Source: Clostridia bacterium (lineage in GTDB: Bacteria > Bacillota > Clostridia > Christensenellales > UBA1242). Taken from it: a stretch of 64,000 nucleotides of DNA. The DNA lies in contig JAZONM010000005.1 in assembly GCA_045654505.1 (NCBI GenBank), positions 162,183 to 226,182 on the forward strand, written 5' to 3'. Both the position numbers and the translations under genes were made by a program. The notes under the pieces were generated by a model, which saw only the letters and a list, made by a program, of their open reading frames with translations, made no database searches and had not been told where the DNA came from. Positions 6,001-42,182 of this stretch are shown here, one piece after another; positions within the stretch are counted from its first letter, which is position 1; each line of letters opens with the position of its first letter.

Positions 6001-9000
6001 TTGGTAGTAATAACGAATTCTTGTATGATACTTCACAAACACTTGGTAAAAATAGTCATATTACAGGAACTCTACATAATGACAATACCGAAACCACTGA
6101 TTCTGATGGTGGTAATATTATCAATATTCAAGCAGATATCGAGATTCAAAAGGGATATGTATATGCTTCGTACATTACATACAATAAAAAGATTGAATAT
6201 ATCTATAATTCGGTTGTAAATTATGATAAGGCTATAGATATTGTGAATTCAACTGGTGATGTAGGCTGGTCTAATGCTTTACAAACTCTAATCATAGCTA
6301 AAACCGAACAATATATTTATAATTTCTCATCTATGGGCAGTAGTATATTTGATTTAACTTTTGACGAAAGTAAGTATGTAGATAAATTTATGAATACTGC
6401 GTTTGGTACTTCACTAGGAAATGCAGCCGATGTATCAAAATATTGGACTATGATTGCGGATAGTAATTCTGGTCGTCTTGTGCATTCATGGATGTATAAA
6501 GATAAGTATTTTGACACTATACTTGATAATGAGTATAGATATTATGAATATGATGAAGCAAATATAGATGATTTTAGTATTGACTCTATAGATGACCTTG
6601 TCTTATTTAAAGAAAAAGTAAATGCAGGTGAGTTTAGCGGAAATATCCAATTAAACACCGATATTGATCTTGGTGCAAAACTTTGGATGCCAATCGGAAC
6701 TGAAACCAATCCATTTACTGGCACATTTGATGGCAGTGGTCATACAATATCCAATATGCGTGTGATGGGAAATACATACAATGGTCTATTTGGCGTGACT
6801 AAAGATGCAACAATCAAAAATCTACGTATTAAGGACGCACAAGTAGCAGGGTATGGAAATTTGAGTCGAAGTGCAGTACTTATTGGTCAATCCATAGACA
6901 GAATTTCACTTGAAAAAGTAGGTGTGGAAGACGCACATATAGCCGGCAACAATATTGCTGGACTTATAGGTTCTTTGAATAGAAGTGAAGATGAAATAAT
7001 TCCACAAGTTTCTTTCCAACATGTATATGCTGTCGTTGCGGAAGGCGAATCGAGCATGGAAAACCAATATGCAATGCTTGTAGGAGACACTATTGATGCA
7101 ACAATTGATCCAGGTATTGAGATGGGTGAGGTGTATGCTGCAGAGATTAGAGTTGGTAAGGGCAACTCAACCTATGAAATAAATGAATATAGTAGCTACT
7201 TTTTGAGCACGAAGACTATTGACATGGTGAGCAATAATTCGATATATCTATTGACTAGAAATAGTGGACACTTAACAAAAGCAGTTAAAAAATCCAAATA
7301 TGAGATGCAGACCGAAATGCTGGAAGGCTTTAGTTGGTCTGAAGTATGGGTAAGAGAAAGTACCAAAAACTACGGTCTTCCTACTCTAAAATTTGAGATT
7401 GGTTATTGGATTGATGAAGGTAAAATATTGTCTGAGCTTGAAGAAGGTGAAATTTACAAAGGCATGTATGACGGAGCGGAGGTAGAATTGATAGCCCCTT
7501 CGTATGATACAGATACTAAAACATATACGATAATATATCCACATCATCTTGCGTGGGTAGCATATCAAGTAAATGAACTTAGCAAAAACTTTGAAGGCGA
7601 ACGCATTTTGATTACCCAAGCACTTGATCTATCGAGCATGATCTGGTCGCCAATAGGCACTGAAGAGGTACCATTTAAGGGTACGGTGTCAAGTGAATAC
7701 ATGGAAGACACAAAATCCACTCTTAAAATCTCAAATATGACTACATATGGTAATTATATGACTACATTTACAGAAGTGGAAGATTTAAATACTGGTTTTG
7801 TATTTGAAAGTCGTGATGTAAATACTACATATGGTGGTCTATTTGGTAATTTTGAAGGCACGCTAGAAAGCAATCAAATAAAATTTGACAATGCTGTGGT
7901 ACACAATACTGAGTATGCCGGAGTATTGGCGGGTAATATTAGCACAACAAGAGAATCATTGCCTATCACCACATTACAAAGTATTGATATAAAAGGTCAT
8001 GCAAATGTCGGTGGCCTTGTGGGTATGATGGTACAAACAGACGGTAGTAAGATAACAAAAATAACATGCAATGTGATAGATGCAGTAATTGCAGTATACA
8101 CTGCTACTAATGAAGAGCATGGACTATATGTCGGAGGTGTAGTCGGACACGGCACTAGAGTAAAAATACAAAATTCTACAGTACTAAATGCAAGTATTTC
8201 TGCAAAGGTAGACGAAAATGTAGATTATGAAAATGGTATTTTTGCAGGCGGTATTGCAGGATATGTAGATAGTAGCAAGATATTCAATTGCCAATTTGGT
8301 GACGATGCGGCTAGTAGTTATGGTTATGCCACATTGACATCCAATGGCAGTGCTGGCGGTATTGTCGCGGAAATGAAAGATACCGAATTATACGCATGTC
8401 TATCTTTCGGCCGCGTATATGGTAGACAATATGTCGGAGGCATAGTCGGACATATGACTGGAAGCAAGTCAATCGTTCAGAACGTGACAATGCAAGGTGA
8501 AATAGATTCGGATTATCACGAGGATGTGGACACATATACTGGCGGAATTGTCGGATATATGGAAAATGGATACTTGTCAGAGGCTGTATTTATTGGAAGC
8601 CTTCCTTCAGTAGCTGACAATTATATTTATGCTCACGAACTTGGTGGTGTAGTGGGTTATCATAAAGCCGGAAATATTGTAAACATATACAGCGACGTAC
8701 TTGATTTTTCTACGAAATCATATACATACTCCAATATATATGGTTATTTAGTGGGAAAAACAGACGCAATAGGTTCGATTTCTATGGCGGTACTTCAATG
8801 TGACAATAATTGTGCTTTTAATCTTTTAGGACAATGGAGTTGTAAATATACAGGTCTAATTGGAAACAAAGTCGGTGCTGAATATTCGCTTACCAAGCTT
8901 GCAAGTACAATTACTACATCATGCAGGATACATAATCTACATGATAATGATAGAAATTTTGTAGATTACTCTGATGGATATAAGGCATATTTGTATTCAT

Positions 9001-11852
9001 CTTCTTGGCAATATGGATTTGATGGTACTATAGGTACATTATCACTTAAAGAGGCGGAAGGTAGCACTCTTGTAAGTAAGTATCATATCTATAAGACTAA
9101 TGCAGATAGTACGATTGTGCTAGACGCACTTGTGCCTTACGAAATAAACGCTTCGTCTGATCAATATGTATTACAAGTAAAGGATTTGGAATACTATAGC
9201 AAATATGTAAGATACAGATATGGTTATCAATCAGACATAACTATAAATATTGCAAGTGGTTTTAATATGAATGTAGATACTTATGAGCCAATCGGTATCA
9301 ATGAGTATTATCCATTTAAAGGCACAATAAATGGCGGAAATAATACGATATTGTTTACGAAAAAAATAAATCTACAGCATACACTTGCAAATAATTCTAA
9401 GGTGCTTGACAATGTAGGTCTTGTTGGGTATTCAATTGGACTTAAAGCAAGTAATCTAACTCTAAAAGCTGAAGGAAGTGGTGATGGATTTAGGACACTG
9501 GATGATATGTATTCAGCTGAAAATGTGGGTGGACTTGTAGGTTGTCTATCTATTGAAAGCCCTTATAATACGGAAGATAAAAGTATTCCATATGTTATCG
9601 ATAACATAAACATACAAATGTCAATTATGGGCTATGTAAATGTCGGTGGTATGATAGGTAAGGCTGTAATTATAGATGGCAGTGAAGCAAAACTAAAAAT
9701 AACGAAATGTGACTTCGAACATATAATGGAGTATGATACAACTGAGGAATTATATGTTGTTAAGGTGGAGAATGCTGTAGGTACTCAATTTAAAGAAGTG
9801 CCTGAAAATAATGCAAAATTTGTCGGTGGCTTAATAGGTTATGCTTCTGGTTATAAATTGGACACAACTGACTTTGTCGGAACAATCAATTTTGCCCTTA
9901 ACGGCATTACTGGAAATAGTACTCAAGGTACTGTGGGTGGACAGTATAATCTTGGCGGAATTGTAGGATATGCTAAGAACACATATTTTGAAGGCTGTGT
10001 AGTAGAAGCTACAGATGATAATACTCCAAATATCAAATATTCTAATATTACAGACACTCAAGGTACATATGCCGGAGGTATAGCGGGTGAAACGCTTGAT
10101 TCCTGCATAAAAGGATGTAGAATAGATGGCGTGAGAATTCTTGCGAATATAGACGACACAGGAAATGATATTGGCGGAGTCGTAGGTCGTGCTACTAATT
10201 CTGTAATTGAAGATTGTTATATGCCTTACAGTGAAGCGACCAACTCTACTATTGAAGGTACTTCCTTTATAGGTGGTATTGTGGGCAGAGCTTATGAAGG
10301 TACTATAATAAAGTCATGTGGCACCTATGAAAAACTAACTATTATGATGTTTTATAAAGCTTATTATGTTGGAGGAATAGTAGGTTTTTTGGCAGACAAG
10401 AGTAAAGTTACGGGGGCTTTAGACAATCCTACAGTAAGTAGAGGTACAATAAAAGCTGAAGATGAAATAAGATTTATTGAAAATGGCATAGGTGGTATTG
10501 TAGGGTTGTTGAATAAGGATGGAGTGATTGAGTATTGTGATAATGAATTAAACATAAATTGTGAAAATCTATTTGGTGATGGTGGTGTTGGTGGAATACT
10601 TGGTATAGCAAGTAATAGCACTATTGTCACAATTGCAAACTGTAATAATAAAGGTAATGTTTTGATTAAAGATTCTCAAGTTGGTGGTATATTAGGATAT
10701 TCGTACAATAGTTATGTAGATATAAGTAATTCTACCAACTATGGTAACATTACTGGTAATAATTATGTAGGTGGTATTATTGGTAGAGGAACAGATGGAA
10801 AATACTCAATAATCAATTGCGAAGTCTCAGGGGCTACAATCACTGGATATAAATATGTTGGCGGAATCATAGGTGAACTTAATGCAAATGATGGTACTGA
10901 ATTTAAAGCTGTTTTTGGCTCAGATTCTACCGTAAATGGAGAAGAGTATACAGGTGGGCTAATTGGCAGTGCTGTAAAAGTAAAGCTTTTATCTGGCACG
11001 CAAATGAATGGTAAAGCAAACTTGGGTAGACAGACTACTGAAATAACGGATTTGTATTGTGGTGGTCTTATTGGATATGATTCAGATTGTGATTTTAATG
11101 AGATTGAAGATACAAAAGCACTTGGAGATAGTGCAGAAATCTTTGCAGACATTACCGATCCTAAAGGTAAGTTATACGCTTCTGATGGTAGTATAATAAA
11201 AGGAGCTAACGAAACCTTAACAGTAAAAGATTTAGCACTTAGATATTATTTTGCTGCAGACCCACATGGTGCTGATGGTGTATACTCATATACGGGTAAC
11301 ACTGGTGGAACTTTTAGCATTAGATATAATATATTCTCATATTCCAGTAGTACATCTATAGGTACAAATGAACAAGCAAATTACGTTGGGGTGCTAACGA
11401 ATTATACAGATGATTATAAAATAGGCTTTATTACAGGAAATGGCACATATTATGATTTTGCTGAAAGTACTGCAAGTTTTAAACTTAATGATATTTACTA
11501 TGAATATGATTTTATTTGTTGTGGTGAAGATAGTGGTACCATACATGGTACGTATACTATTTCAGAGGATACATGGGGTGATGATGTAGCTACAGCCTCA
11601 TTGGTATTTAAATTCAACGCATACATATATGACGTAACTAGATCTATGTCTTATACTACATGGGCAATGGGTGGTAATACGAATGTGGTTATCAACCGTA
11701 AAGGTGAATATAAATATAGTAATACTCTTTATGGTACTGGTAGTGCGGCGACCAACAACGACACAGCGATAAAAAATGCAATTGCTGATTTGAATAATAA
11801 ATTTGGACCTATTGTAGTAGATATAGACGAGGGTGATTTAAAACCTATCTAA
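1..11852 (+). CDS. Giant GLUG-motif repeat protein (adhesin/surface-like); 5' end lies upstream of the window
   Basis: Frame 3 is open from nt 3, with no stop before the listed ATG at 168. The upstream residues (..YVAGFAGINGGYISSSFF..) already carry the repeat. Stop TAA at 11850-11852. There are dozens of GG[ILV][AVI]G units spaced about 20-30 aa apart, which is GLUG-motif-like. At least five module starts have the form [WY]xP[IV]G-x5-PFxG, at about nt 1344, 3543, 6684, 7644 and 9282. No C-terminal LPXTG or TM segment is seen. Confidence 0.85.
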   Translation, partial: SSISNINVKGSDYVAGFAGINGGYISSSFFKGGSVISNEKNTKAQAITAGFVAQNMSGKIQYCYVLGAENRDTFDVTQKTISYTANGNPATAIEDNTTYIDKNSNLLYINKNSDADKLEVDLSAYAGYNFYKDYKDNDEYKYISQFRALGSVVYTNNYASGFVGENKAYISNSYSNLVVYGTYAAGFTINNSEGNIEHCYTMCSIENSDNTQYPFARVSGKINSSFYLLMSRIDNLPSKGDVEDYYFDKFSNASSQDATQLSANAFQDYNTFTAWAFNSDYSNNVNIMDGVWFIPQATYENDEAKEATQNTYNEYFKEDDYTPLRPELVSANLQSISLKFFLNTSTGDSDDEDLDTTVINWEYIEVPKWKRSVKDIEGNVLVRDVNIAQGSINNPLLVSTAEEFNLNCGEPITETGVPNMSRKDAVRMIHDISFNNIDQTANTYNVDYIGNFEGNGLSINNLRISADNEDTAVPADEVTRLGLFRRIASTTEKDPITNTDVTIVGNVRNLNLNIVEINGSNVNMVGVLAGSIDSGRVYNIVIDDAEENVNVEGLNAVGGLAGYISGDAEVVNVTSNVSVKANAINQYNTFSYKNPNKPNNQFKMFVSNANTRKVDITNVYSTLAETIRNTSYVGAIAGIIDVNTNPDTNSALSNINNIDRIRQCNVDDEVKLSAEVVGGIAGFVGKDTYMSSCAIKIHANSQLNASRIAGGVVGQNQGFINRIAIEYSNQKEIDAQFIPKTDNTKNDETLYNKYDNPTNNDEANVLNVKQDTFTNNAHYIGGIAGVNIGGYIHNSYSRINVVNVSAQYAGGIIGLNIGAPTTEEVQFDQLYSTGSVYAFYAYGGIIGYQPYVEVLETAEKYRFVDEVSFEGKGINSYANNVKDLIESVYGITPSSISVKTDTKGTTKTVLDIKTTYSNIVGANIWRRIDLNTNRTQYYGGHAPAIVGTFVGYTTLSYDGSDIKDVDLSISKNPINERMIHENSFFKQTFKYSSPNNLVPEIGNAELLAIDYTDVRKESITNFIVYKNNTKEYFITGDYENDGLTYRFSRLAYYGSMRTLNEMIHRTYLIGDNRNGANSIYTRLGTSVIGTSSGGEYDLDKDTVTTNIYRNWNAFNWNGVRLGTNQTIYNDIQGVRDLFPSLVNNIQPAVVYVYTEEDLKLMHSYRNAKFILQNDIMLTQAWEPVGTYTKPFNGELCSSISNGAYNDFTIRNLNIDRYNNDYFGFVAVSAKSNFHHFNIEYSTIKCNKDNDVNSTIAGAVLLGYAKNGQKSSSIHNVDIFAEKADSYINIYSTRYVGGLVGLAENVAIYNCSVKGFVEIKEEPAAEPGAEPTKIEVVNKIKFTSSMALDKNSKLSYHFGLLAGHISVFNNVESTTPQNTVDGIKIIIDNSEVKTVRDYNDAPTADEDAQNPDEVPNNTNINIGGMYGTILEKTGADKTELDINILKDSSITINFVPFAASAENSIENNEDHINIGGMIGNVVDTTLNNITMSNFDINYTNENKVIGAINIGGVVGYGTGIVTNAITRTTSDITVTNALNRTSYSYRIGGVFGFIVHSENIDLDNNFTNKKAIKVNNSKITLNGLTETTPGGGSYYIGGFAGEGDRSAFGYVMVDNGTTYKNNATGEVEVTGKTDIIEFLTASTQNAYVGGVYGKLNGGSLGFAYAIGNIYSNKDAKSTAAGSTSAERYIGGIIGYAGDIWSGANTSIDNVASDVDIVDSQYNSASLVSKVGGVVGVSMGGTAIGKENVITNAHSTGKIYVENNILYTNATNTSAGGIVGYASWTNIDNTYSATQILLGNVKAGSSRNAYLENAAAKGGIVGSMVGATGLDVNHSYYVQDFVPYGTSAGIGVEYDEMMVEALSFGVNRTEDEPNPSSGLILKDERTDTDIFTTGVDRYPTLAWIEDIENASIYCNHTNTVPFVLKNDADIEKEGVAEGTDLYMEANLRYSNKTIYFIGSKENPVKIMKDAGDRSITINPMTTIIVDGGLETNATIYNHGTIIGSNNEFLYDTSQTLGKNSHITGTLHNDNTETTDSDGGNIINIQADIEIQKGYVYASYITYNKKIEYIYNSVVNYDKAIDIVNSTGDVGWSNALQTLIIAKTEQYIYNFSSMGSSIFDLTFDESKYVDKFMNTAFGTSLGNAADVSKYWTMIADSNSGRLVHSWMYKDKYFDTILDNEYRYYEYDEANIDDFSIDSIDDLVLFKEKVNAGEFSGNIQLNTDIDLGAKLWMPIGTETNPFTGTFDGSGHTISNMRVMGNTYNGLFGVTKDATIKNLRIKDAQVAGYGNLSRSAVLIGQSIDRISLEKVGVEDAHIAGNNIAGLIGSLNRSEDEIIPQVSFQHVYAVVAEGESSMENQYAMLVGDTIDATIDPGIEMGEVYAAEIRVGKGNSTYEINEYSSYFLSTKTIDMVSNNSIYLLTRNSGHLTKAVKKSKYEMQTEMLEGFSWSEVWVRESTKNYGLPTLKFEIGYWIDEGKILSELEEGEIYKGMYDGAEVELIAPSYDTDTKTYTIIYPHHLAWVAYQVNELSKNFEGERILITQALDLSSMIWSPIGTEEVPFKGTVSSEYMEDTKSTLKISNMTTYGNYMTTFTEVEDLNTGFVFESRDVNTTYGGLFGNFEGTLESNQIKFDNAVVHNTEYAGVLAGNISTTRESLPITTLQSIDIKGHANVGGLVGMMVQTDGSKITKITCNVIDAVIAVYTATNEEHGLYVGGVVGHGTRVKIQNSTVLNASISAKVDENVDYENGIFAGGIAGYVDSSKIFNCQFGDDAASSYGYATLTSNGSAGGIVAEMKDTELYACLSFGRVYGRQYVGGIVGHMTGSKSIVQNVTMQGEIDSDYHEDVDTYTGGIVGYMENGYLSEAVFIGSLPSVADNYIYAHELGGVVGYHKAGNIVNIYSDVLDFSTKSYTYSNIYGYLVGKTDAIGSISMAVLQCDNNCAFNLLGQWSCKYTGLIGNKVGAEYSLTKLASTITTSCRIHNLHDNDRNFVDYSDGYKAYLYSSSWQYGFDGTIGTLSLKEAEGSTLVSKYHIYKTNADSTIVLDALVPYEINASSDQYVLQVKDLEYYSKYVRYRYGYQSDITINIASGFNMNVDTYEPIGINEYYPFKGTINGGNNTILFTKKINLQHTLANNSKVLDNVGLVGYSIGLKASNLTLKAEGSGDGFRTLDDMYSAENVGGLVGCLSIESPYNTEDKSIPYVIDNINIQMSIMGYVNVGGMIGKAVIIDGSEAKLKITKCDFEHIMEYDTTEELYVVKVENAVGTQFKEVPENNAKFVGGLIGYASGYKLDTTDFVGTINFALNGITGNSTQGTVGGQYNLGGIVGYAKNTYFEGCVVEATDDNTPNIKYSNITDTQGTYAGGIAGETLDSCIKGCRIDGVRILANIDDTGNDIGGVVGRATNSVIEDCYMPYSEATNSTIEGTSFIGGIVGRAYEGTIIKSCGTYEKLTIMMFYKAYYVGGIVGFLADKSKVTGALDNPTVSRGTIKAEDEIRFIENGIGGIVGLLNKDGVIEYCDNELNINCENLFGDGGVGGILGIASNSTIVTIANCNNKGNVLIKDSQVGGILGYSYNSYVDISNSTNYGNITGNNYVGGIIGRGTDGKYSIINCEVSGATITGYKYVGGIIGELNANDGTEFKAVFGSDSTVNGEEYTGGLIGSAVKVKLLSGTQMNGKANLGRQTTEITDLYCGGLIGYDSDCDFNEIEDTKALGDSAEIFADITDPKGKLYASDGSIIKGANETLTVKDLALRYYFAADPHGADGVYSYTGNTGGTFSIRYNIFSYSSSTSIGTNEQANYVGVLTNYTDDYKIGFITGNGTYYDFAESTASFKLNDIYYEYDFICCGEDSGTIHGTYTISEDTWGDDVATASLVFKFNAYIYDVTRSMSYTTWAMGGNTNVVINRKGEYKYSNTLYGTGSAATNNDTAIKNAIADLNNKFGPIVVDIDEGDLKPI

Positions 11853-34788: not shown

Positions 34789-35541
34789 TTAGTTGTTGTA
34801 ATCTCTAAGAATATTGCGTGCAAGATCAGAGGCGATTATTCTATTTGAAGCATAGAAGTCGCGTCTATCAAATCTTAGTGTAACTTCTTTAGCGATTTTG
34901 TATGGTACTTCACGATAAAAATTCTTTTCGCGTTGCATTTGTGGGCTTAAAGCAAACTCTTTTATAAGGCTTGCAAGATATGCATTGAATATAGTGTCTA
35001 GTGCATTCACGACTTCTTTGTATTCAATACATTCGATAAATGCATTGGCAATCATTTTTTCATTACCATTATGTAGATTTGGGCGATTGCTGATAAAATC
35101 ACACATAATCTCAAACATACTTTTCTTATTGTGTCTGCTGTCATTATAGTTAAAGTCTTTTACAATGCTTGCCACTTTAAAATGAGCATCTATATCGTCA
35201 AATACTGTTTCGACTTTATTTATCATCCCCATACAAATACGTGTACGAGCAAGACCTCTAAGATTTAGTCTGCCGTCTTCAAATATGGTGTAAGAATCCT
35301 CATTATTGAAACGAGTAGCCATCTGAATACCTAGATTAGCAGTTTTGAAAGGGGAGCACACATAGTCTATAAAATACTCTTTTACATTGTCTTTATTAAA
35401 GCTTGACACATTTGCTAATTCAATACACTCATTAAAGACATTGGAAACAACATTTGTTTTGCGCACAAAAAAATCTATTTGCTCATTAAGCAAATACCAC
35501 ACGCTGTCTATTGCTAAGCTTTCTAATTTTTTTGTTTCCAT
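34789..35541 (-). CDS. Hypothetical protein P1 (250 aa)
   Basis: Long ORF with its own promoter and terminator. Weak SD (AAGGAAAA). No motif recognised and no TM segment. Confidence 0.65.
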   Translation of the reverse strand: METKKLESLAIDSVWYLLNEQIDFFVRKTNVVSNVFNECIELANVSSFNKDNVKEYFIDYVCSPFKTANLGIQMATRFNNEDSYTIFEDGRLNLRGLARTRICMGMINKVETVFDDIDAHFKVASIVKDFNYNDSRHNKKSMFEIMCDFISNRPNLHNGNEKMIANAFIECIEYKEVVNALDTIFNAYLASLIKEFALSPQMQREKNFYREVPYKIAKEVTLRFDRRDFYASNRIIASDLARNILRDYNN

Positions 35542-35561
35542 TTTTCTTATTTTCCTTTTAT

Positions 35562-35591
35562 ATTATAAAATTTTATGTTTGTGCTTGTCAA
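35562..35591 (-). promoter_or_regulatory. Promoter of P1
   Basis: On the minus strand: TTGACA (plus strand 35586-35591), 17-18 nt, then TTATAAT. Confidence 0.55.
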
Positions 35592-35612
35592 ATTTTTTAA
35601 TGACATATAGAC

Positions 35613-35650
35613 ATAAAAAAAAGAAGGTTTGCACCTTCTTTTTTGTTTTT
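35613..35650. terminator. Terminator of P2 (symmetrical A-run/T-run hairpin)
   Basis: A8, stem aagaaggt, loop ttgc, stem accttctt, then a T-run. It separates the P2 stop (35691) from the P1 promoter. Confidence 0.8.
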
Positions 35651-35690
35651 GATACTATAATAAAAGTCAAACAACATCGGCTTTTTGTAA

Positions 35691-36452
35691 TTACATAACT
35701 TTTTCATTTATTATGCTGCTTCTGATTTTAGTCGCAGTCGTATTTTTGTACTCTTCTGGAGTATAAGCAAGTCCGTGTTTTTTTGTGGAAATTTCAGATA
35801 TTTTCGAATTGAATTCGTGTAGCCAGAATGAAATATTTACTGAGGGATATTGTCTAGCCAATTGTCTACATTGTCTGCGATTCAATTGCTGTTGTTGGGC
35901 ATATGATTCCAGTTGTTGTTTCACAACTTCCTCGCTGCAGTATTCTAGGTCGAAAATATTTATTGTACTGCTTCTTTGTTTGTCTATTCTGGTATATATA
36001 TCTTTTGTGTATTCATTTATGGTAGTGTTTTTCAATTTCTCAAGTTTTACCAAAACAGCATTTGGAGGGAGATTGTCCCAATTGTGTTCGCTTGCTATTG
36101 CGCTTGCAATACGCTTTCTTTCGTTGAGATTGTGTGCAAATTCCAATGAAGTAATGCTATTGATTATACTTTTAATGTCTTTTGTGTAGTATTGACTAAA
36201 TAAAAAAGAACAATCATATTTTAAACCAAACATTCTTTCTACTTTTGTACTTTTATCAATACTTGCTGCTATATCTATCAATTGAGAATGTATTGATGTC
36301 TTGAGAAATTTATCATCGTGTGGTGTGTTTGTAGTGGAGGAAAGAGCCTTTTTGACAATGGCATAAATGTCTTGGGTGTACTTGTGAATATATTCTGATA
36401 TTAAATTGTCGCAAAGTAAAATTGTGTTTTCTACTAGATTATTGTCAGCCAT
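35691..36452 (-). CDS. Hypothetical protein P2 (253 aa)
   Basis: Perfect AAAGGAGGAAAAAATG start context on the minus strand and its own terminator. Contains a Q-rich segment (QQQQLNRRQCRQLARQ). No motif recognised. Confidence 0.7.
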   Translation of the reverse strand: MADNNLVENTILLCDNLISEYIHKYTQDIYAIVKKALSSTTNTPHDDKFLKTSIHSQLIDIAASIDKSTKVERMFGLKYDCSFLFSQYYTKDIKSIINSITSLEFAHNLNERKRIASAIASEHNWDNLPPNAVLVKLEKLKNTTINEYTKDIYTRIDKQRSSTINIFDLEYCSEEVVKQQLESYAQQQQLNRRQCRQLARQYPSVNISFWLHEFNSKISEISTKKHGLAYTPEEYKNTTATKIRSSIINEKVM

Positions 36453-36628: not shown

Positions 36629-36778
36629 ACACACGTAAATTGAATATTTCGTTTCGCCAAAGACAGCAAGTACAAAGGTAAATCTTGCCGAGGTAAGTAG
36701 TAAGTGATAATTATATCTCTACGCTTATTTGGCGTGGAGATTTTCTTTTTATAATCACATTTAAAAAGGAGAAATATA
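36629..36778 (+). promoter_or_regulatory. Probable ribosomal protein L10 leader (autoregulatory 5' UTR) with a terminator-type attenuator
   Basis: ~150-nt UTR ending in the hairpin atctctacgc / gcgtggagat (36715-36741) plus ttttcttttt, just before the rplJ SD. This is the layout of the Firmicute L10 leader. The covariance model was not run. Confidence 0.55.
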
Positions 36779-37267
36779 GTGAGCGCTAATCAAGAGTTAA
36801 AAAAGAAAGTTGTTGCCGAACTTAAAAGCGAATTTGAAGGCGCAAAGTCAATCATTTTTGTAGACTATCGTGGTATCAATGTATCTGAAGACACAAAACT
36901 TAGAAAGACTTTCCGTGAAGCAAATGTAACTTATAGAGTTTGCAAAAACAACCTACTAAAACTTGCTCTTCAACAACTTGGCGTTACAGGAATTGAGCCT
37001 ACATGGCTTGAAGGTACTACTGCAGTAGCATATTCTACTGATGAAGTTGCACCTGCTAGAGTATTCTGTAAAGCTGCGAAAGAGCTTAACAAAATGAACG
37101 TTAAATTCGGTATTGTTGATGGTAAGTTAATGAACCAAAGCGAAGTTGAAGCATTGGCAAAAATTCCTTCAAAAGAAGTACTTATTGCTATGTTGCTTGG
37201 TCAACTTCAAGCCCCAATTTCTGCTTTTGCAAGGGCTTTAAATCAAATAGCAGAAAAACAAAATTAA
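36779..37267 (+). CDS. rplJ: 50S ribosomal protein L10
   Basis: GTG start 7 nt after AGGAG. ..IIFVDYRGINVSEDTKLRKTFREANV.. is typical L10. Confidence 0.95.
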   Translation: MSANQELKKKVVAELKSEFEGAKSIIFVDYRGINVSEDTKLRKTFREANVTYRVCKNNLLKLALQQLGVTGIEPTWLEGTTAVAYSTDEVAPARVFCKAAKELNKMNVKFGIVDGKLMNQSEVEALAKIPSKEVLIAMLLGQLQAPISAFARALNQIAEKQN

Positions 37268-37292
37268 TTTATATTTATAAGGAGAAATTAAA

Positions 37293-37667
37293 ATGGCAGA
37301 TCTTAATAAATTTGTTGAAGAAATCAAAGGTCTTACTGTACTAGAAGTAAGCGAATTAGTAAAAATGTTGGAAGAAGAGTTTGGCGTAAGCGCAGCTGCT
37401 CCTGTTGCTGTTGCTGGTGCTGCTCAAGCTGATGCTCCTGCTGCTGCAGAAGAGAAAAGCGAATTTACAGTAGTATTGAAGGAAGTAGGCGCTAATAAGA
37501 TTGCAGTTATTAAAGTTGTTAAAGAAATTACTGGTCTTGGTCTTGGCGAAGCAAAAGCTATCGTTGATGGCGCACCTGCTAATGTTAAAGAAAACGTTCC
37601 TACAGACGAAGCAAAAGCAATTGAAGCAAAACTTAAAGAAGCTGGCGCAACTGTAGAACTTAAGTAA
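37293..37667 (+). CDS. rplL: 50S ribosomal protein L7/L12
   Basis: Ala-rich hinge and C-terminal ..[22 protein letters not shown].. Confidence 0.97.
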
Positions 37668-37688
37668 TCCTAATTTAAATGTGAATAA

Positions 37689-37716
37689 AAAAGACCTATT
37701 TTTAGGTCTTTTTTTG
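37689..37716. terminator. Bidirectional terminator between rplL and the DUF1540 gene
   Basis: A-run, stem aaaagaccta / taggtctttt, then a T-run. Confidence 0.8.
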
Positions 37717-37756
37717 TTTTGTGCATAGTACTACTCAAATTGAATAATTTTCAATA

Positions 37757-38083
37757 TCACTCTTTTATTCGTGTTATGCACTCTGCGGTATTGGAGCCGT
37801 GTTGGAGAGTGATGCCATTGCTATAACACTTACGGTCATTATTGAAAAGACAATTGACGCAGTCGCAGTGGATGTCGACTTTTTTGTTGTGTCGATAGGG
37901 ATGGACAGTGGGTTCTTTTTCAAACATATCGCGGCTTACATCTTGTTGTTGGCGAGGAGGGAGTGTGTCATCATATCTCTCATATGATGCACACATTCCG
38001 TCATTAGTGACTGCAATCCCTTTGCATACACAACAGTATGCGTCGTTGTTTTTACAGTTTAGTTGTCTACATTTCAAATCCAT
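37757..38083 (-). CDS. DUF1540-like Cys-rich protein (two Cys-rich half-repeats)
   Basis: C-x4-C-x7-CC-x-C..C in the N-terminal half and C-x-C-x2-C-x8-C..C in the C-terminal half resemble the DUF1540 pattern. 108 aa. Confidence 0.55.
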   Translation of the reverse strand: MDLKCRQLNCKNNDAYCCVCKGIAVTNDGMCASYERYDDTLPPRQQQDVSRDMFEKEPTVHPYRHNKKVDIHCDCVNCLFNNDRKCYSNGITLQHGSNTAECITRIKE

Positions 38084-38112
38084 TTCAGCGCTCCTTTATA
38101 TCACTATTATTA

Positions 38113-38141
38113 TTGACTTTTAAGCGGTGTTTTATTACAAT
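38113..38141 (+). promoter_or_regulatory. Promoter of rplI
   Basis: TTGACT at 38113-38118, 17 nt, TACAAT at 38136-38141. It shares TATTGACTTTTA(A)GCGG with the rpmG promoter. Confidence 0.55.
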
Positions 38142-38164
38142 ATAATTGTAAATATGGAGGAAAT

Positions 38165-38605
38165 ATGAAGGTTGTATTATTGAAAGATTTGAAAGGTAAG
38201 GGTAAGAAAGGTGATGTTATCAATGTAAATGATGGCTATGCTCAAAACTACTTACTTCCAAATGGTTATTGTGTGATTGGTAATGCTAGCAATCTAAACG
38301 AGGCAAAACAAGCAAAAGCGGCTAGTGCTTATCACGAAGAGCAAAACCAAATCAAGGCGCGTGAGCTTGGTGCAAAGCTGAAGAATATTAGTATCGTACT
38401 TGCTGTAAAGTGTGGAGCAAATGGTAAAATATTTGGCAGTGTAACAAACAAAGAAGTGTCAGCGGAACTTGAAAAACAAGGTTTTGATATTGACAAAAAG
38501 AAAATCGAGATGCCGCTTATAAAAAACACTGGCGAATATACCGCAAAAATAAAATTATACGCAAATATTTCTACTGATATAAAAGTCCAAGTAGTGGAAG
38601 GATAA
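38165..38605 (+). CDS. rplI: 50S ribosomal protein L9
   Basis: MKVVLLKDLKGKGKKGDVINVNDGYAQNYLLP.. with GGAGG SD. Confidence 0.95.
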   Translation: MKVVLLKDLKGKGKKGDVINVNDGYAQNYLLPNGYCVIGNASNLNEAKQAKAASAYHEEQNQIKARELGAKLKNISIVLAVKCGANGKIFGSVTNKEVSAELEKQGFDIDKKKIEMPLIKNTGEYTAKIKLYANISTDIKVQVVEG

Positions 38606-38616
38606 TACGAAAAGAT

Positions 38617-39132
38617 ATGTTTAAGTTTAAAAATGTGAGGGGGGGGGGTAACCTCCTAGAAAAAAATACTTACAATAGAATGATTGATGAAATAAAATTT
38701 GATTCTAGTGTAGTAATAGGTGATAAGCAATATAAGGTGCTATCAAAAACCTTCTATTCTAATTTAAATAATCGTCAATTAAAGTATGTAAAATTTGTAT
38801 TAAATAACGATAAAATATTGGTTGTTAATCCTGAAAGAGAATCAATATTTCTTGGGGAAGTGGTAGATGACTTCTATAAAGACGAATACTTCCCAAAAAG
38901 TTTTGAATATGAAGGCAAAACATTTGTAGAGTTTGAAAAAGATATCCAAATCGTAAATAAAATTGAGTTTGGCGAACCAGCTGAATGTGAAGGTGAGTGT
39001 GTTTGGGTAGATTATGTATGTCAAGAAGACAAAACTATATGTATTGACATGGCGTATATCTATAGAGATAAAAAACGTGCTGATATTTTGGCAAAATGGA
39101 TTGATATAAAAACAATAAAAGTAAAGAATTAA
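38617..39132 (+). CDS. Hypothetical protein, tentatively DUF4178-like, with a G10 tract in codons 8-11
   Basis: 171-aa ORF starting 11 nt after rplI. Repeated F.Y.GK.F...W.DY-type beta-rich pattern and an acidic Cys-rich stretch, EPAECEGECVWVDYVCQEDKTIC. No obvious SD. The family assignment is from memory only. Confidence 0.5.
   Translation: MFKFKNVRGGGNLLEKNTYNRMIDEIKFDSSVVIGDKQYKVLSKTFYSNLNNRQLKYVKFVLNNDKILVVNPERESIFLGEVVDDFYKDEYFPKSFEYEGKTFVEFEKDIQIVNKIEFGEPAECEGECVWVDYVCQEDKTICIDMAYIYRDKKRADILAKWIDIKTIKVKN
38638..38647 (+). repeat. Homopolymeric G10 tract inside the coding sequence
   Basis: gtgaGGGGGGGGGGtaacc. It encodes R-G-G-G. It is the longest G/C run I saw in the window. Confidence 0.95.
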
Positions 39133-39159
39133 GATAGTGTAAGAAGAGGGGTTGTGGAT

Positions 39160-39543
39160 ATGACAAAATTAACATTAAAACAAGTAGAATATATCAAATT
39201 GGCAGAAAAATTGGTATTTACTACTGCAAGTAAAGATGCAAAACCTCGTAGTATCTATGTGATGCCTAGCAGAATTGAAGAGGACAGGATTATCTTATCA
39301 AACATTCAAATGGATAAGTCTCTGACAAATATATTGGAAAACAATAATTGCTTTTTAAATGTTTATCTTCCCGATGAGGACGATTTGCAAATAAAAATCG
39401 AGGGCAAAGCAGAAGTGGTAGATAATGGCTCTTTGTATGAAGAAATAAAGGAATATGAGGAAAGTGAAAATTTGCCACCTGAGCTTAAGGTAAATTCGAT
39501 TATTATAGTAAAAGTAGTCAGTGTCGAAGAGACAAATGGTTGA
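39160..39543 (+). CDS. Pyridoxamine 5'-phosphate oxidase-fold (flavin-binding split-barrel) family protein
   Basis: ..KLVFTTASKDAKPRSIYVMP..DRIILSN.....SLTNILENNNCFLNVY.. resembles small PNPOx-like proteins. ATG 39160 lies 8 nt after GAGGGG; GTG 39154 is also possible. Confidence 0.6.
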   Translation: MTKLTLKQVEYIKLAEKLVFTTASKDAKPRSIYVMPSRIEEDRIILSNIQMDKSLTNILENNNCFLNVYLPDEDDLQIKIEGKAEVVDNGSLYEEIKEYEESENLPPELKVNSIIIVKVVSVEETNG

Positions 39544-39552
39544 TAATTTATT

Positions 39553-40653
39553 ATGGAGGGGTATATGACAGACAATTTGAATACGATAGCTTTTCACATA
39601 ACAGATAATTGCAATGCTCATTGCCCGATGTGTTATGAAAATGCTCAGCAAAATTTGGACCTTAATGGCGAATTGGACACATTGAAAAAGATTGCACATA
39701 ATGCGATTAGATATGGAAAAGTGGAAAATTTTTTAATGGTAGGTGGCGACCCATGTGCATTTCCACACCTTATTGAATTGATGCGATATATCAAGGATGA
39801 GGGTGAGAGGTATGGTGTAGATACTTTTATTGAAGTTTTGTCCAATACGCATGATTACAGAGAAAACGGTAAAATTGTGCCAATGGAAGAGGTTGTAAAG
39901 TTGGTGGACAAAATGAATATTACTGTTCATGGTTCTACGCCTTTACTTCATGATATATTTAATGGTGTGCCAGGATCGTATAATCATATGATAGAGAATG
40001 TGAGAAAGTATATTGAATGTAAAGGGGACGATCAGTCTGTCGGACTTACTTTAAATATAATGCCACACACTATATATTCTTTAGAGAACATTATTCTTAA
40101 TACAAACAGGGATTTGGGTGGAAATATTGTTGATTTGTGCATACAAAGAATTGCACCAGTAGGAAGAGCTGAAGGAAATCTTGAGTTTTTGATTGAAAAA
40201 CCCGATGTAAATGTTTTTATGCCGGTATTGGAAAAAGCGTATCAATCGGGAATGGGTATCGATATCTGTGATTGTTTTCCGTATTGCTCAGTAAAAGATG
40301 AATATCGTCATTTGCTTCCTAAAGGCGGTTGTCAATGGGGAAGAAATATTTTATCTGTGCAAAGAAATGGTGATATGACGCGTTGTGCGCTGTCTTCTAG
40401 AGTTATTGGAAATATGGTAAAACTTGACAGCGAAGAAAAGTATTTTGATTGGTGGGAAAACTGTCCAGAATTGGAGTCTTTTAGAAGAGGTGCTCATTTG
40501 AATGAAGCCTGCAAACAATGCAAACAAGTAGATGAATGCGGCGGAGGGTGTTTGATGGCTCGAGATACAGGTGACCCATACAGATTTGGTGCTGAAAATG
40601 TCACTACAGGAAGAGATTATTTAGCTACTACAGATTATAAAGACGGAAAATAA
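39553..40653 (+). CDS. Radical SAM enzyme with a C-terminal SPASM/twitch-like Cys cluster
   Basis: CNAHCPMC (CxxxCxxC) at nt 39610-39633. C-terminal cysteines are CDCFPYC, GGCQWG, RCAL and ACKQCKQVDECGGGC. The start is more likely ATG 39565, which follows GGAGGGG. Confidence 0.85.
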   Translation: MEGYMTDNLNTIAFHITDNCNAHCPMCYENAQQNLDLNGELDTLKKIAHNAIRYGKVENFLMVGGDPCAFPHLIELMRYIKDEGERYGVDTFIEVLSNTHDYRENGKIVPMEEVVKLVDKMNITVHGSTPLLHDIFNGVPGSYNHMIENVRKYIECKGDDQSVGLTLNIMPHTIYSLENIILNTNRDLGGNIVDLCIQRIAPVGRAEGNLEFLIEKPDVNVFMPVLEKAYQSGMGIDICDCFPYCSVKDEYRHLLPKGGCQWGRNILSVQRNGDMTRCALSSRVIGNMVKLDSEEKYFDWWENCPELESFRRGAHLNEACKQCKQVDECGGGCLMARDTGDPYRFGAENVTTGRDYLATTDYKDGK

Positions 40654-40682
40654 AAAGATTGCCTAAAGCAATCTTTTTTTTA
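40652..40682. terminator. Terminator after the radical SAM gene
   Basis: Stem aaagattgc, loop ctaaa, stem gcaatcttt, then T9. The upstream A-run gives partial bidirectionality. Confidence 0.85.
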
Positions 40683-40739
40683 TTATTTGTTTTTATCATA
40701 GTGATATTATTTACACTGCACTAAATGTCATTGTTTATG

Positions 40740-41477
40740 TTAGTCGTTGTTTCGATGTACAAATACTATGAAAAAACGAAGAAGTTCTAAAATGCTTACT
40801 ACAAATGATGCTAGATAAGTAAGAGCTGCTGCACTTAGCATCTTTTTACATTCTGCAGTTTCTTCAGTATTTAATATACCACTTGATTGAAGTATTTTTG
40901 TAGCGCGTCGACTTGCATTGTATTCTACTGGAAGAGTGACTAAATTGACCAAAACAGACAAACCGAAGAATATTAGACCTGCCCATACAAAATAATTGCC
41001 AATTGCGCCATTCATGCTTCCAAAACCGAATATAAATCCAAGTATTACAAGAGGCCAAAGCAATTTTGATGATATATTACTGCAAGTGATAGCAAATGTA
41101 CGAAGTTTGATTGGGGCATAATTGGATTTGTATTGTAATGCATGTCCTACTTCATGAATTGCGATTCCAAGGGCTGCTACTGTGTCATTTGAAAAAGAGT
41201 TTTTTGATAGAGATATTACTTTATTCTTATGGTCATAGTAGTCGGACATATTGTCGCCTTGGACTTGTATGGTTATGTCTTGCAGACCTGCGGTATCAAG
41301 CAACATACGTGCGACTTCGCCACCTGTTTTGCCTGATTGTACTTTTATCTTGTTGCATCTGGCAAATGTCATTGAGACTCTTGATTGAGCATATATGGCA
41401 AGCAGCACTCCCGGAATAAGTATTATACCCATTAGGTAATATTCGAAATAAGTGCCTGCAAGTAACAAATTAAACAT
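40740..41477 (-). CDS. YugP-family membrane zinc metallopeptidase (copy 1)
   Basis: HEVGHALQ (HExxH) plus N- and C-terminal TM segments. GGGAG SD. Confidence 0.8.
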   Translation of the reverse strand: MFNLLLAGTYFEYYLMGIILIPGVLLAIYAQSRVSMTFARCNKIKVQSGKTGGEVARMLLDTAGLQDITIQVQGDNMSDYYDHKNKVISLSKNSFSNDTVAALGIAIHEVGHALQYKSNYAPIKLRTFAITCSNISSKLLWPLVILGFIFGFGSMNGAIGNYFVWAGLIFFGLSVLVNLVTLPVEYNASRRATKILQSSGILNTEETAECKKMLSAAALTYLASFVVSILELLRFFIVFVHRNND

Positions 41478-41486
41478 TTTATCTCC

Positions 41487-42182
41487 CTATCTAAAAATTC
41501 TGAAAAGTTTTCTGGCGGTAATAGTAAAATCGTCAAATAAACCAACAATATATGTTTGTGCTGCGATTTTTAAAAATCTTTTTACTTTCGGAACTTCATT
41601 TTTATTGATTATTTTGGCATTGGTAAGAAAACGTATTGCGCGTTTGCTTGCGTCAATTTCTACTGGTATTGTAAGTAGTTTGAATAGCGCATGAAGTGCA
41701 AATAAGATACCTGATGAAATGACCATGTTGAGACCAATAGTTTCGGTTGGCCATTTAAATATCATAAAAGCAAGTCCAAAGATTAGCAGTGGTATGATAA
41801 ATCTATTTGTAAAATGTGTGAATACATTAAGCAGATGATTCAATCTGAAAAGAGGCATATTTTCTTTGTCTTGCATAGCGTGTCCAAGCTCATGAGCTAC
41901 TACTGCGCAGCTTGCTATAGATTCGCTTTCGCAGATGTCTTTACTAAGATACAACATCTTTTTTCTACTGCTGTATGCATCAGTAAGGGTGCCACTTACT
42001 AAAGCAAACTCTATATTAAGATTCATATGTTGTTTGCCGTATGCAGCAATGCGTTCACCACTTATACCATTGTCATTTGGTGTTCTTATATATTTTTTGT
42101 AGGCGCTCATTATTCTTCTTCTGGCGCTAAATAACCAAATAAGGAAAAATAAAACAACCCCACCTATTATTAAGTATGTCAT
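41487..42182 (-). CDS. YugP-family membrane zinc metallopeptidase (copy 2)
   Basis: HELGHAMQ and the same TM layout as copy 1. It lies 9 nt upstream of copy 1. AGGGAG SD. Confidence 0.8.
   Translation of the reverse strand: MTYLIIGGVVLFFLIWLFSARRRIMSAYKKYIRTPNDNGISGERIAAYGKQHMNLNIEFALVSGTLTDAYSSRKKMLYLSKDICESESIASCAVVAHELGHAMQDKENMPLFRLNHLLNVFTHFTNRFIIPLLIFGLAFMIFKWPTETIGLNMVISSGILFALHALFKLLTIPVEIDASKRAIRFLTNAKIINKNEVPKVKRFLKIAAQTYIVGLFDDFTITARKLFRIFR

What the first reader, a model, noticed from the sequence alone, without database searches (positions are those of the whole stretch)
38638..38647. G10 homopolymer in codons 8-11 of the first cassette gene: candidate slipped-strand ON/OFF switch
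The run gtgaGGGGGGGGGGtaacctcctag is the longest G/C homopolymer I found in this AT-rich window. The next longest are 5-6 nt.

As written, the G10 run keeps the 171-aa ORF in frame (..NVRGGGNLLEK..). With G9 the frame reads ..gta acc tcc TAG. With G11 it reads ..ggg TAA. Both single-nucleotide slippages therefore stop translation within 1-4 codons, which is the layout of a contingency locus.

The ORF heads the non-ribosomal part of the rplI operon, so OFF states could also affect the downstream PNPOx and rSAM genes through loss of coupling. L9 is known to restrain ribosomal frameshifting and hopping, so its position immediately upstream is a curious coincidence. I attach no mechanistic claim to that.
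Basis: seen in the sequence. Interest (0 to 1): 0.65.

Follow-up and report, generated by a model that had tools for sequence, protein, structure and literature searches.

The report
Poly-G on/off switch heading gene cassette
A run of ten G's near the start of an accessory gene behind ribosomal gene rplI is real, differs in length between near-identical gut-bacterial strains (9, 10 or 12 G's) and recurs at the same spot in two other species, so it most likely acts as a classic slippage-driven on/off switch, here in an uncultured ruminant-gut bacterium.

Summary
The tract is real. It is G10 at 38639-38648, one base right of the reported coordinates, and it is the only G/C run longer than 6 in the window. 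Three assemblies carry it.

It lies in codons 8-11 of a short, disordered N-terminal leader of about 17-21 codons. The leader is specific to this lineage and is fused to a DUF4178-like protein of about 150 aa. That gene is the first of an accessory cassette (DUF4178-like, PNPOx-like, radical-SAM/SPASM) predicted to be co-transcribed with rplI.

Near-identical strains in other metagenomes carry:
- G9 and G12, both out of frame, stopping after 13-14 codons;
- interrupted in-frame versions (GAAGGGG, G4);
- a 352-nt deletion;
- no cassette at all.

Two other species have a similar leader (for L004 the DNA similarity exceeds shuffles) with G11 (OFF) or G9 (ON). It begins 22-26 nt after the ATG of the first cassette gene, which there is the PNPOx gene. 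These leader tracts are the only G/C runs of 7 or more in about 107 kb examined.

The slipped-strand ON/OFF reading is therefore well supported by comparison. Three things were not tested because no raw reads were available: length heterogeneity within one population, reversibility, and any phenotype. Polar effects on the downstream genes are doubtful, because both have strong ribosome-binding sites of their own. This is a new member of a known kind.

The parts
38113..38141 (+). Promoter-like site (TTGACT-17-TACAAT) upstream of rplI; predicted start of the transcription unit
   Evidence: a consensus match only
38165..38605 (+). rplI (ribosomal protein L9); its stop codon lies 11 nt before the leader ATG
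   Evidence: Pfam Ribosomal_L9_N and Ribosomal_L9_C
38617..38679 (+). N-terminal leader, codons 1-21 (MFKFKNVRGGGNLLEKNTYNR). It is lineage-specific, predicted disordered, and contains the tract
   Evidence: pLDDT below 50 for residues 1-15. Family members start at about residue 18. Its DNA is similar to the L004 leader beyond shuffles
38639..38648 (+). G10 homopolymer, the hypermutable tract. It is G9 or G12 in other strains and replaced by GAAGGGG or G4 in others
38649..38651 (+). TAA read as a stop when the tract is G8, G11 or G14
38657..38659 (+). TAG read as a stop when the tract is G9 or G12
38680..38682 (+). In-frame ATG (M22). It is the only possible downstream re-start and has no Shine-Dalgarno site
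38617..39132 (+). First cassette gene: an all-beta protein distantly related to DUF4178, 171 aa including the leader
38632..38638 (+). AATGTGA, left copy of the 7-nt microhomology, directly abutting the tract. The right copy is at 38984-38990. The 352 nt between them are deleted in runs X3, X5, X7, X17, X25 and X26
39160..39543 (+). Second cassette gene: PNPOx-like split-barrel protein with its own SD (AGAGGGG) and no leader
39565..40653 (+). Third cassette gene: radical-SAM/SPASM enzyme with its own SD (GGAGGGG)
40652..40678 (.). Terminator-like hairpin, readable on both strands. It is the first terminator-like site downstream of rplI

Best explanation
The G10 run is a selectively maintained, slippage-prone homopolymer. 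It sits 7 codons into a short leader that supplies the start codon for the first gene of an accessory cassette: a DUF4178-like protein, then a PNPOx-like flavoprotein, then a radical-SAM/SPASM enzyme. The cassette rides on the rplI transcript.

Replication slippage changes the number of G's. Lengths of 10 (and 7 or 13) keep the leader ATG at 38617 in frame with the protein, which is the ON state. Any other length ends translation at TAA (38649) or TAG (38657) after 10-14 codons, which is the OFF state. In OFF, at most a weak re-start without a ribosome-binding site is possible at M22.

The result is a heritable, presumably reversible translational ON/OFF switch of the contingency-locus type. 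Strains can lose the switch in two ways: by interrupting the tract in frame (locked ON) or by deleting the gene.

Shown here: the tract is real, it is exceptional for this sequence, its length differs between strains, the frame consequences are as stated, and the tract recurs in the leaders of two other species.

Inferred: that ATG 38617 is the start used, that switching happens within a population and is reversible, and that the switch has any adaptive value.
For: 1. The tract is unique in the window, with a chance expectation of about 0.006.
2. Exactly G10 appears in three assemblies and two haplotypes.
3. G12 is found in X8 and G9 in X13, on flanks differing by only a few SNPs. The rest of the ORF in the G12 strain has 4 synonymous and 2 non-synonymous changes and no stops.
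4. Both independent non-homopolymer alleles differ by multiples of three: -3 (GAAGGGG) in X1, X2, X4 and L007, and -6 (G4) in X10. This preserves the frame through the leader.
5. ATG 38617 is the only plausible start. M22 and V7 have no SD (about 0 kcal/mol), whereas most of the other genes checked in the window score -8 to -12. M1 scores -6.1 and lies 11 nt after the rplI stop. Starting at M22 would cut into the first conserved helix, residues 18-25.
6. L004, a different species, has ATG with a strong SD, 8 codons, then G11 and a stop. G9 or G12 would fuse the leader to PNPOx, whose conserved N-terminus has no other start codon.
7. L009, a third species, has ATG with a strong SD, 8 codons, then G9, in frame with PNPOx.
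8. The window and L004 leaders align at the DNA level with score 54 against 20.7 +/- 3.4 for shuffles. Without the tract the score is 39 against 22.9 +/- 3.9.
9. In about 43 kb of fetched loci plus the 64-kb window, the only G/C runs of 7 or more are these leader tracts.
Against: - The G9 and G12 alleles each rest on one short Logan contig of low depth (2.8x and 3.5x). No raw reads were available, so library or sequencing slippage cannot be fully excluded for G9, and mixtures within one sample were not seen directly.
- Every contig long enough for gene calling is in the ON or locked-ON state.
- The leader is poorly conserved (4 non-synonymous changes to 1 synonymous) and disordered, and its ATG has a weak, poorly spaced SD.
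- The cassette is absent or decayed in many strains, so OFF lengths could simply be early pseudogenisation.
- Only one such tract occurs in 64 kb, whereas organisms with classic contingency loci carry many.
- The product looks cytoplasmic and is of unknown function, not the usual surface or restriction-modification target.
Confidence: 0.62

Rival explanations
1. The tract is hypermutable but has no function. It mutates quickly, and the out-of-frame lengths are simply first steps in the neutral decay of a dispensable accessory cassette, not states of an adaptive reversible switch.
For: - The cassette is absent in X9, X11, X12 and X18.
- It carries a 352-nt frameshifting deletion in X3, X5, X7, X17, X25 and X26, plus a second 1341-nt deletion in X3.
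- The leader evolves without visible constraint.
- Another homopolymer, T8 at 40674-40681, also varies between strains.
Against: - A neutral G9-G11 run should not persist at the same leader position in three species whose proteins are only about 40-62% identical. Within this one species it has already been interrupted twice.
- The G12 allele is otherwise intact, with mostly synonymous changes.
- G10, the in-frame length, is the commonest length seen.
Confidence: 0.22
2. The tract lies in a 5' untranslated leader or a small upstream ORF. The real start of the DUF4178-like gene is M22 (38680), so length changes do not switch the protein off. At most they alter a short upstream peptide or the coupling to rplI.
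For: - All orthologues and about 95 family representatives start at the position of residue 18 or so, without any extension.
- Residues 1-15 are predicted disordered.
- The SD for ATG 38617 is weak and 15-21 nt away.
Against: - M22 has no SD at all, in a genome where nearly every gene has a strong one.
- Starting at M22 removes 3-4 residues of the conserved first helix.
- All indel alleles preserve the frame.
- In L004 and L009 the leader ATG has a strong, well-spaced SD, and in L004 the conserved PNPOx N-terminus has no other start.
Confidence: 0.09
3. The run acts at the RNA level. RNA-polymerase slippage or ribosomal frameshifting on the G run produces a mix of frames from any allele, so expression is tuned rather than switched by DNA length.
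For: Only general knowledge that long homopolymers can cause transcriptional slippage. The assembled OFF length in L004 would be tolerable if decoding were leaky.
Against: - No RNA data could be obtained. The single RNA-type run found showed no contig across the junction.
- The RNA fold of the region is no better than shuffles, z = -0.65.
- By general knowledge, slippage is best documented on A/T runs rather than G runs.
- DNA-level length differences are observed directly.
Confidence: 0.05
4. Sequencing or assembly artefact, such as a poly-G dark-cycle artefact or a homopolymer miscount.
For: Homopolymers are error-prone. Several Logan contigs break at or next to the tract (X19, X22, X23, X8, X13).
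Against: - Identical G10 appears in three assemblies built with different assemblers and on two haplotypes.
- The tract is internal to contigs and flanked on both sides by matching sequence.
- The length is in frame.
- Related tracts occur in other species.
Confidence: 0.02

Closest known systems
Intragenic poly-G contingency loci of Campylobacter jejuni
   Same: An AT-rich genome with G runs of about 8-13 inside the 5' part of coding sequences. A change of one G truncates the product, and ON and OFF lengths differ between near-identical isolates.
   Different: C. jejuni carries dozens of such tracts, mostly in surface-glycan, flagellar or restriction-modification genes. Here there is a single tract in 64 kb, in what is probably an uncultured ruminant-gut Clostridia-type bacterium. 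It sits in a grafted leader on a cytoplasmic-looking redox cassette of unknown function. Switching rates are unknown.
Simple-sequence-repeat phase variation in Neisseria meningitidis (PMC5084427) and the contingency-locus concept in Haemophilus and Neisseria
   Same: Stochastic, reversible repeat-length changes that alter the reading frame. Prediction rests on tract length, position and polymorphism between strains.
   Different: In those organisms deep sequencing has validated heterogeneity within populations. That step could not be done here.
Homopolymeric-tract phase variation and microevolution in Bordetella pertussis (PMC1891110) and in the Mycobacterium tuberculosis complex (PMC10334774)
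   Same: Homopolymer length polymorphism among otherwise very similar strains, used as evidence of phase variation. The targets include non-surface genes.
   Different: Different phyla and GC contents. Those studies rest on hundreds to thousands of genomes, whereas here there are only 5 tract-bearing sequences.
Hypermutable homopolymer hotspot in a flagellar gene of Paenibacillus glucanolyticus (PMC9941203)
   Same: A member of the Firmicutes in which a reversible mutation in an intragenic hotspot toggles a function.
   Different: That case was demonstrated experimentally with a clear phenotype. Here the phenotype and reversibility are unknown.
DUF4178 (Pfam PF13785) protein family
   Same: An all-beta protein of about 150 aa. 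Distant relatives of the window protein match DUF4178 at or near the threshold.
   Different: The window protein itself gives no Pfam hit, there is no structural match in the PDB, and the function of DUF4178 is unknown.

Membership tests
SSR-mediated phase-variable (contingency) locus, intragenic homopolymer type | A homopolymer long enough to slip (G/C of about 8 or more) and over-represented relative to base composition | tested here: met
   G10 is the only G/C run longer than 6 in 64 kb, with 0.006 expected
SSR-mediated phase-variable (contingency) locus, intragenic homopolymer type | The tract lies inside the translated region (or the promoter), so that length changes alter expression | tested here: inconclusive
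   It lies in codons 8-11 of the only ORF start with any SD. The in-frame indel alleles and the leaders in L004 and L009 support translation. There is no direct evidence of initiation at 38617.
SSR-mediated phase-variable (contingency) locus, intragenic homopolymer type | Changes of one repeat unit cause premature termination | tested here: met
   G9 and G12 give ..VTS*, and G8 and G11 give ..GG(G)*
SSR-mediated phase-variable (contingency) locus, intragenic homopolymer type | Tract length is polymorphic among closely related strains | tested here: met
   G9 (X13), G10 (window, L001, L008) and G12 (X8). Caveat: the G9 and G12 contigs have a depth of about 3x.
SSR-mediated phase-variable (contingency) locus, intragenic homopolymer type | Length heterogeneity within a single population or clone, at a high rate and reversible | not testable with these tools
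   Every run that holds the locus is kept only as Logan contigs, with no raw reads
SSR-mediated phase-variable (contingency) locus, intragenic homopolymer type | The tract is maintained by selection, i.e. conserved across diverged lineages despite being mutable | tested here: met
   G11 in L004 and G9 in L009 lie at the same leader position, 22-26 nt after the ATG. The window and L004 leaders resemble each other beyond shuffles.
SSR-mediated phase-variable (contingency) locus, intragenic homopolymer type | A phenotypic switch in expression of the product | not testable with these tools
   This needs reporters, proteomics or culture
DUF4178 (PF13785) | A match to the Pfam model at or above the gathering score | tested here: not met
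   The window protein has no hit at E <= 0.01. Among remote relatives, only P0020 reaches 25.7 bits against the 25-bit cut-off; the others fall below it. The protein is treated as a distant relative, not a member.
RiPP-type radical-SAM/SPASM maturase cassette | A radical-SAM/SPASM enzyme next to a short precursor peptide, or an equivalog match to a known maturase | tested here: not met
   The rSAM and SPASM domains are present, but all NCBIfam equivalog scores are far below their cut-offs, and no precursor-like small ORF was identified

The most novel reading that the evidence does not exclude
The start codon, about 7-8 codons, a G9-12 run and an immediately following frame-dependent stop together form a portable switch module. 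This module has been maintained, and grafted by recombination, onto different first genes of small accessory redox operons in several uncultured gut Clostridia. In the window it is fused to the DUF4178-like gene. In two other species it is fused to the PNPOx gene, in L004 demonstrably in a different reading frame relative to the shared post-tract sequence. Under this reading it phase-varies a cytoplasmic flavoprotein, Fe-S and radical-SAM module that hitch-hikes on a ribosomal-protein promoter, rather than a surface structure.
Probability: 0.3. Interest if true: 0.65.

Novelty: new member of a known kind. Interest (0 to 1): 0.5.

Why it matters
Repeat-driven phase variation is documented mostly in a few cultured pathogens and mostly for surface or restriction-modification genes.

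Here metagenome data alone give a fairly complete series of alleles in an uncultured ruminant-gut bacterium: ON, OFF, locked-ON, deleted and absent. The same poly-G leader also recurs in two other species.

If confirmed, this would show that commensal anaerobes use the same bet-hedging device for an intracellular redox and radical-SAM module. It would also show that a small switch leader can be shared between different genes.

It provides a concrete, cheap test case: amplicon counting of one tract in rumen and faecal samples. It is also a warning for annotation. In L004 the gene caller truncated the PNPOx gene because the assembled tract is in the OFF length.

Tried and rejected
- **RNA structure or terminator at the tract.** The fold energy is no better than shuffles (z = -0.65). 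No terminator-like site lies between rplI and the end of the rSAM gene.
- **The G run as a ribosome-binding site for a downstream start.** No ATG, GTG or TTG follows within range.
- **Raw-read pileups.** All four run searches returned only Logan contigs.
- **RNA evidence.** The only RNA-type run, X11, has no contig across the rplI-ORF junction.
- **JGI metagenomes.** An exact flank pattern with a variable gap found nothing, and a protein-based scan found nothing.
- **GTDB genomes.** Only one distant orthologue without a tract was found, L006.
- **Structure.** The AlphaFold model is confident for the core (pLDDT 80), but Foldseek found no significant PDB match.
- **NCBIfam.** There was no hit for the ORF or the PNPOx-like protein, and only sub-threshold rSAM hits.
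- **Mobile-element repeats flanking the cassette.** None were found.
- **Taxonomic placement through EF-Tu against PDB sequences.** This was uninformative. Some PNPOx relatives are named 'Clostridia bacterium' MAG proteins.
- **Other long-N-terminus members of the DUF4178-like and PNPOx families.** None has a Gly-run leader.
- **Look-up of the window's own protein (P0102).** It is not on record.

Full report
**Observation**

The window contains gtgaGGGGGGGGGGtaacctcctag. The run of ten G's occupies 38639-38648, one base to the right of the reported coordinates. The window is 34.5% GC. The next-longest G runs are two of 6 and four of 5, and no C run exceeds 4. An order-0 model expects about 0.006 G runs of 10 or more in 64 kb.

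The ORF at 38617-39132 (171 aa) reads MFKFKNVRGGGNLLEK.., with the tract in codons 8-11. G9 or G12 gives ..GG(G)VTS*, and G8 or G11 gives ..GG(G)*.

The tract is not an assembly artefact. Two other assemblies carry exactly G10 on a haplotype that differs from the window by several SNPs: L001, a 668-nt MEGAHIT contig, and L008, a 651-nt scaffold.

**Gene context**

- rplI occupies 38165-38605 (Pfam L9 N- and C-terminal domains).
- The 171-aa ORF starts 11 nt after the rplI stop.
- A PNPOx-like protein follows, best start 39160.
- A radical-SAM/SPASM enzyme follows that, best start 39565.

A promoter-like site lies upstream of rplI (38113-38141). The first terminator-like hairpin is at 40652-40678, directly after the rSAM gene. 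The four genes are therefore predicted to form one transcription unit. This is a prediction only. The same gene order is present in a related strain, L007.

**What the ORF is**

The word-indexed protein search found only five relatives. An exhaustive HMMER profile search found 95 cluster representatives, almost all about 150 aa long. Several of them match Pfam DUF4178 weakly, and one reaches the gathering score. The window protein itself has no Pfam or NCBIfam hit.

AlphaFold gives a confident all-beta core (mean pLDDT 80), but residues 1-15 score below 50. No PDB fold match is significant.

In alignments, the close orthologues and 38 of 39 wider family members begin at the position of window residue 15-20. 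The first 17 or so residues, including the Gly run, are therefore a lineage-specific leader and not part of the conserved protein.

**Which start codon is used**

Most of the other genes checked in the window have a strong Shine-Dalgarno site (-8 to -12 kcal/mol).

- ATG 38617 has a weaker, distant one: GGAAGGA inside the last rplI codons, -6.1 kcal/mol.
- The in-frame ATG at 38680 (M22) and the GTG at codon 7 have none.
- Starting at M22 would also remove part of the first conserved helix, residues 18-25.

ATG 38617 is therefore the best-supported start, probably helped by ribosomes terminating on rplI. This step is inferred, not shown.

**Strain-level variation**

These data come from Logan contigs of public metagenomes, mostly ruminant or other gut samples.

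| Allele | Where seen | Consequence |
|---|---|---|
| G10 | window, L001, L008 | in frame |
| G12 | X8 (363-nt contig, depth 3.5) | out of frame |
| G9 | X13 (169-nt contig, depth 2.8) | out of frame |
| GAAGGGG (-3 nt) | X1, X2, X4, L007; protein P0100 found on 5 contigs | in frame |
| G4 (-6 nt) | X10 | in frame |
| 352-nt deletion | X3, X5, X7, X17, X25, X26 | frameshifted remnant |
| Sequence diverges at the rplI stop (no cassette) | X9, X11, X12, X18 | no cassette on that contig |

- The 352-nt deletion lies between two AATGTGA copies, at 38632-38638 (abutting the tract) and 38984-38990. X3 carries a second deletion of 1341 nt that removes the PNPOx gene and most of the rSAM gene.
- X11 also holds contigs of the rSAM gene, so it may be a mixture of strains.
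- In the G12 strain the rest of the ORF has 4 synonymous and 2 non-synonymous changes and no stops. The G9 sample still holds the downstream genes.
- Both independent non-homopolymer alleles preserve the frame. This is modest evidence (chance about 1 in 9) that the leader is translated.

Caveats: the G9 and G12 calls each rest on one low-depth contig. For G9, library slippage cannot be fully excluded. A 2-nt error for G12 is much less likely. No raw reads were available, so mixtures within one sample were not observed.

**Comparative evidence**

This was the most informative result. While checking homopolymers in the fetched loci, I found that L004 carries G11 at L004:2181-2191. L004 is a different species whose DUF4178-like protein, P0005, is 62% identical to the window's.

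- The L004 tract follows an ATG with a strong, well-spaced SD (AAAGGAG) and 8 codons. The ATG sits one base after the stop of an Aminotran_5 gene.
- As assembled it reads MNKSIKNLGGGG*.
- With G9 or G12 it runs straight into the PNPOx gene. The conserved N-terminus of that gene (SFTDKQLK, aligned to the window's KLTLKQVE) lies upstream of the TTG start that the gene caller chose, and has no other start codon in frame.
- The assembled L004 state is therefore OFF.

A third species, L009 (PNPOx protein 61% identical to L004's), has ATG with the same SD, 8 codons, then G9 in frame with PNPOx. This is ON; G8 and G10 stop quickly.

In all three species the tract begins 22-26 nt after the ATG and is followed at once, or one base later in L004, by TAA or TAG.

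The window and L004 leaders are similar at the DNA level. The local alignment score is 54 against 20.7 +/- 3.4 for shuffles. With the tracts removed it is 39 against 22.9 +/- 3.9, with a maximum of 41 in 500 shuffles. Both even encode NLLEK after the tract, though in L004 that lies in the non-productive frame.

PNPOx genes without the leader also exist, namely the window's own and L010. Other family members with long N-termini have no Gly run.

Across about 43 kb of fetched loci plus the window, the only G/C runs of 7 or more are these leader tracts. A mutable run that has already been interrupted twice within one species would not be expected to persist at the same place in three species unless selection maintains it.

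**Interpretation**

The most likely mechanism is classic slipped-strand mispairing in an intragenic poly-G run, giving a heritable translational ON/OFF switch for the first cassette gene. Locked-ON and deleted alleles represent evolutionary exits from switching. I put this at about 0.6.

The main rival, at about 0.2, is that the tract mutates quickly but the OFF lengths are only neutral decay of a dispensable cassette. The frequent deletion and absence alleles fit that view. The cross-species conservation of the tract argues against it.

Less likely readings:
- The tract sits in an untranslated leader, with the true start at M22 (about 0.09).
- Slippage at the RNA level (about 0.05).
- Artefact (about 0.02).

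Both genes have strong ribosome-binding sites of their own. Rho-type polarity across about 480 untranslated nucleotides is possible but untested. Nothing links the phenomenon to L9 function.

**Comparison with known systems**

In how it works, this matches homopolymer contingency loci: the poly-G tracts of Campylobacter (my own knowledge), and those of Neisseria (PMC5084427), Bordetella (PMC1891110), the M. tuberculosis complex (PMC10334774) and a Paenibacillus hotspot (PMC9941203), all found.

Of the defining features:
- Met: tract length and over-representation, frame consequences, polymorphism between strains, and conservation across lineages.
- Supported but not proven: translation of the tract.
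- Not testable here: heterogeneity within a population, reversibility and phenotype.

It differs from the textbook cases in host, in target and in the tract's position. The host is probably an uncultured gut Clostridia-type bacterium, since PNPOx relatives are named as Clostridia MAG proteins. The target is a cytoplasmic-looking redox and radical-SAM module of unknown function. The tract lies in a short grafted leader that appears on different genes in different species.

I rate it a new member of a known kind. There is a less certain but more interesting possibility that the leader is a portable switch module.

Noticed in passing
L004:2157-2260 (Logan SRR25904991 contig): The PNPOx gene was called from a TTG at 2252, with no SD. 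Its conserved N-terminus lies upstream and is reachable only from ATG 2157 if the G11 tract were G9 or G12. The public gene call is therefore truncated by an OFF-length homopolymer.
   Followed up: yes
window 38632-38990 and 39142-40482: Some strains carry two microhomology-mediated deletions. One removes 352 nt between AATGTGA copies, the left copy abutting the G tract. The other removes 1341 nt (8-nt microhomology), taking out the PNPOx gene and most of the rSAM gene. Other strains diverge exactly at the rplI stop codon and lack the cassette. The cassette is therefore an accessory, frequently lost insertion behind rplI.
   Followed up: partly
window 40652-40720: The terminator and T8 run (40674-40681) after the rSAM gene shows 1-5 nt indels between strains. 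This serves as an internal control: other, non-coding homopolymers also vary in length among these strains.
   Followed up: no
L003, L004, L005, L009 (gene neighbourhoods): In other species the DUF4178-like and/or PNPOx-like genes sit between a cysteine-desulfurase-like Aminotran_5 gene and a 196-aa 2x[4Fe-4S] ferredoxin-like gene. This hints at a flavin and Fe-S redox role for the module. One distant family member, P0035, is fused to a SUKH/SMI1-KNR4 immunity-type domain.
   Followed up: partly
window 38617-39132, residues 124-142: A Cys pattern, CEGEC-x6-C-x6-C, is invariant in the close orthologues. In the wider family it is replaced by xEGEV..., so any metal or disulfide site would be specific to this subfamily.
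   Followed up: no
window 168-11852: A giant 3894-aa ORF with only a sub-threshold GLUG-motif Pfam hit, possibly a large surface or adhesin-like protein.
   Followed up: partly
window 34789-36452 (minus strand): Two adjacent ORFs of about 250 aa with no Pfam match. They lie between the rpsL-fusA-tuf block and the L10 leader with rplJ-rplL.
   Followed up: no
window 36639-38605: Unusual ribosomal gene layout. The L10 leader (Rfam RF00557), rplJ and rplL lie far downstream of rpoB and rpoC instead of in front of them. They are followed by a Cys-rich DUF1540-like gene on the minus strand and then rplI with its own promoter-like site.
   Followed up: no
window 40740-42182 (minus strand): Two tandem paralogous Zn_peptidase_2 genes (putative neutral zinc metallopeptidases).
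   Followed up: no
L008:1-130 and 597-651: This ENA scaffold matches the window only in its middle part, and both ends are unrelated sequence. It is probably a chimeric assembly, and the 119-aa protein called from it (P0101) has an artefactual C-terminus.
   Followed up: partly
window 39553-39567: The longest ORF of the rSAM gene starts at 39553. The ATG at 39565 follows a GGAGGGG site at good spacing and is the more likely start. Likewise the PNPOx gene probably starts at ATG 39160, not GTG 39154.
   Followed up: partly
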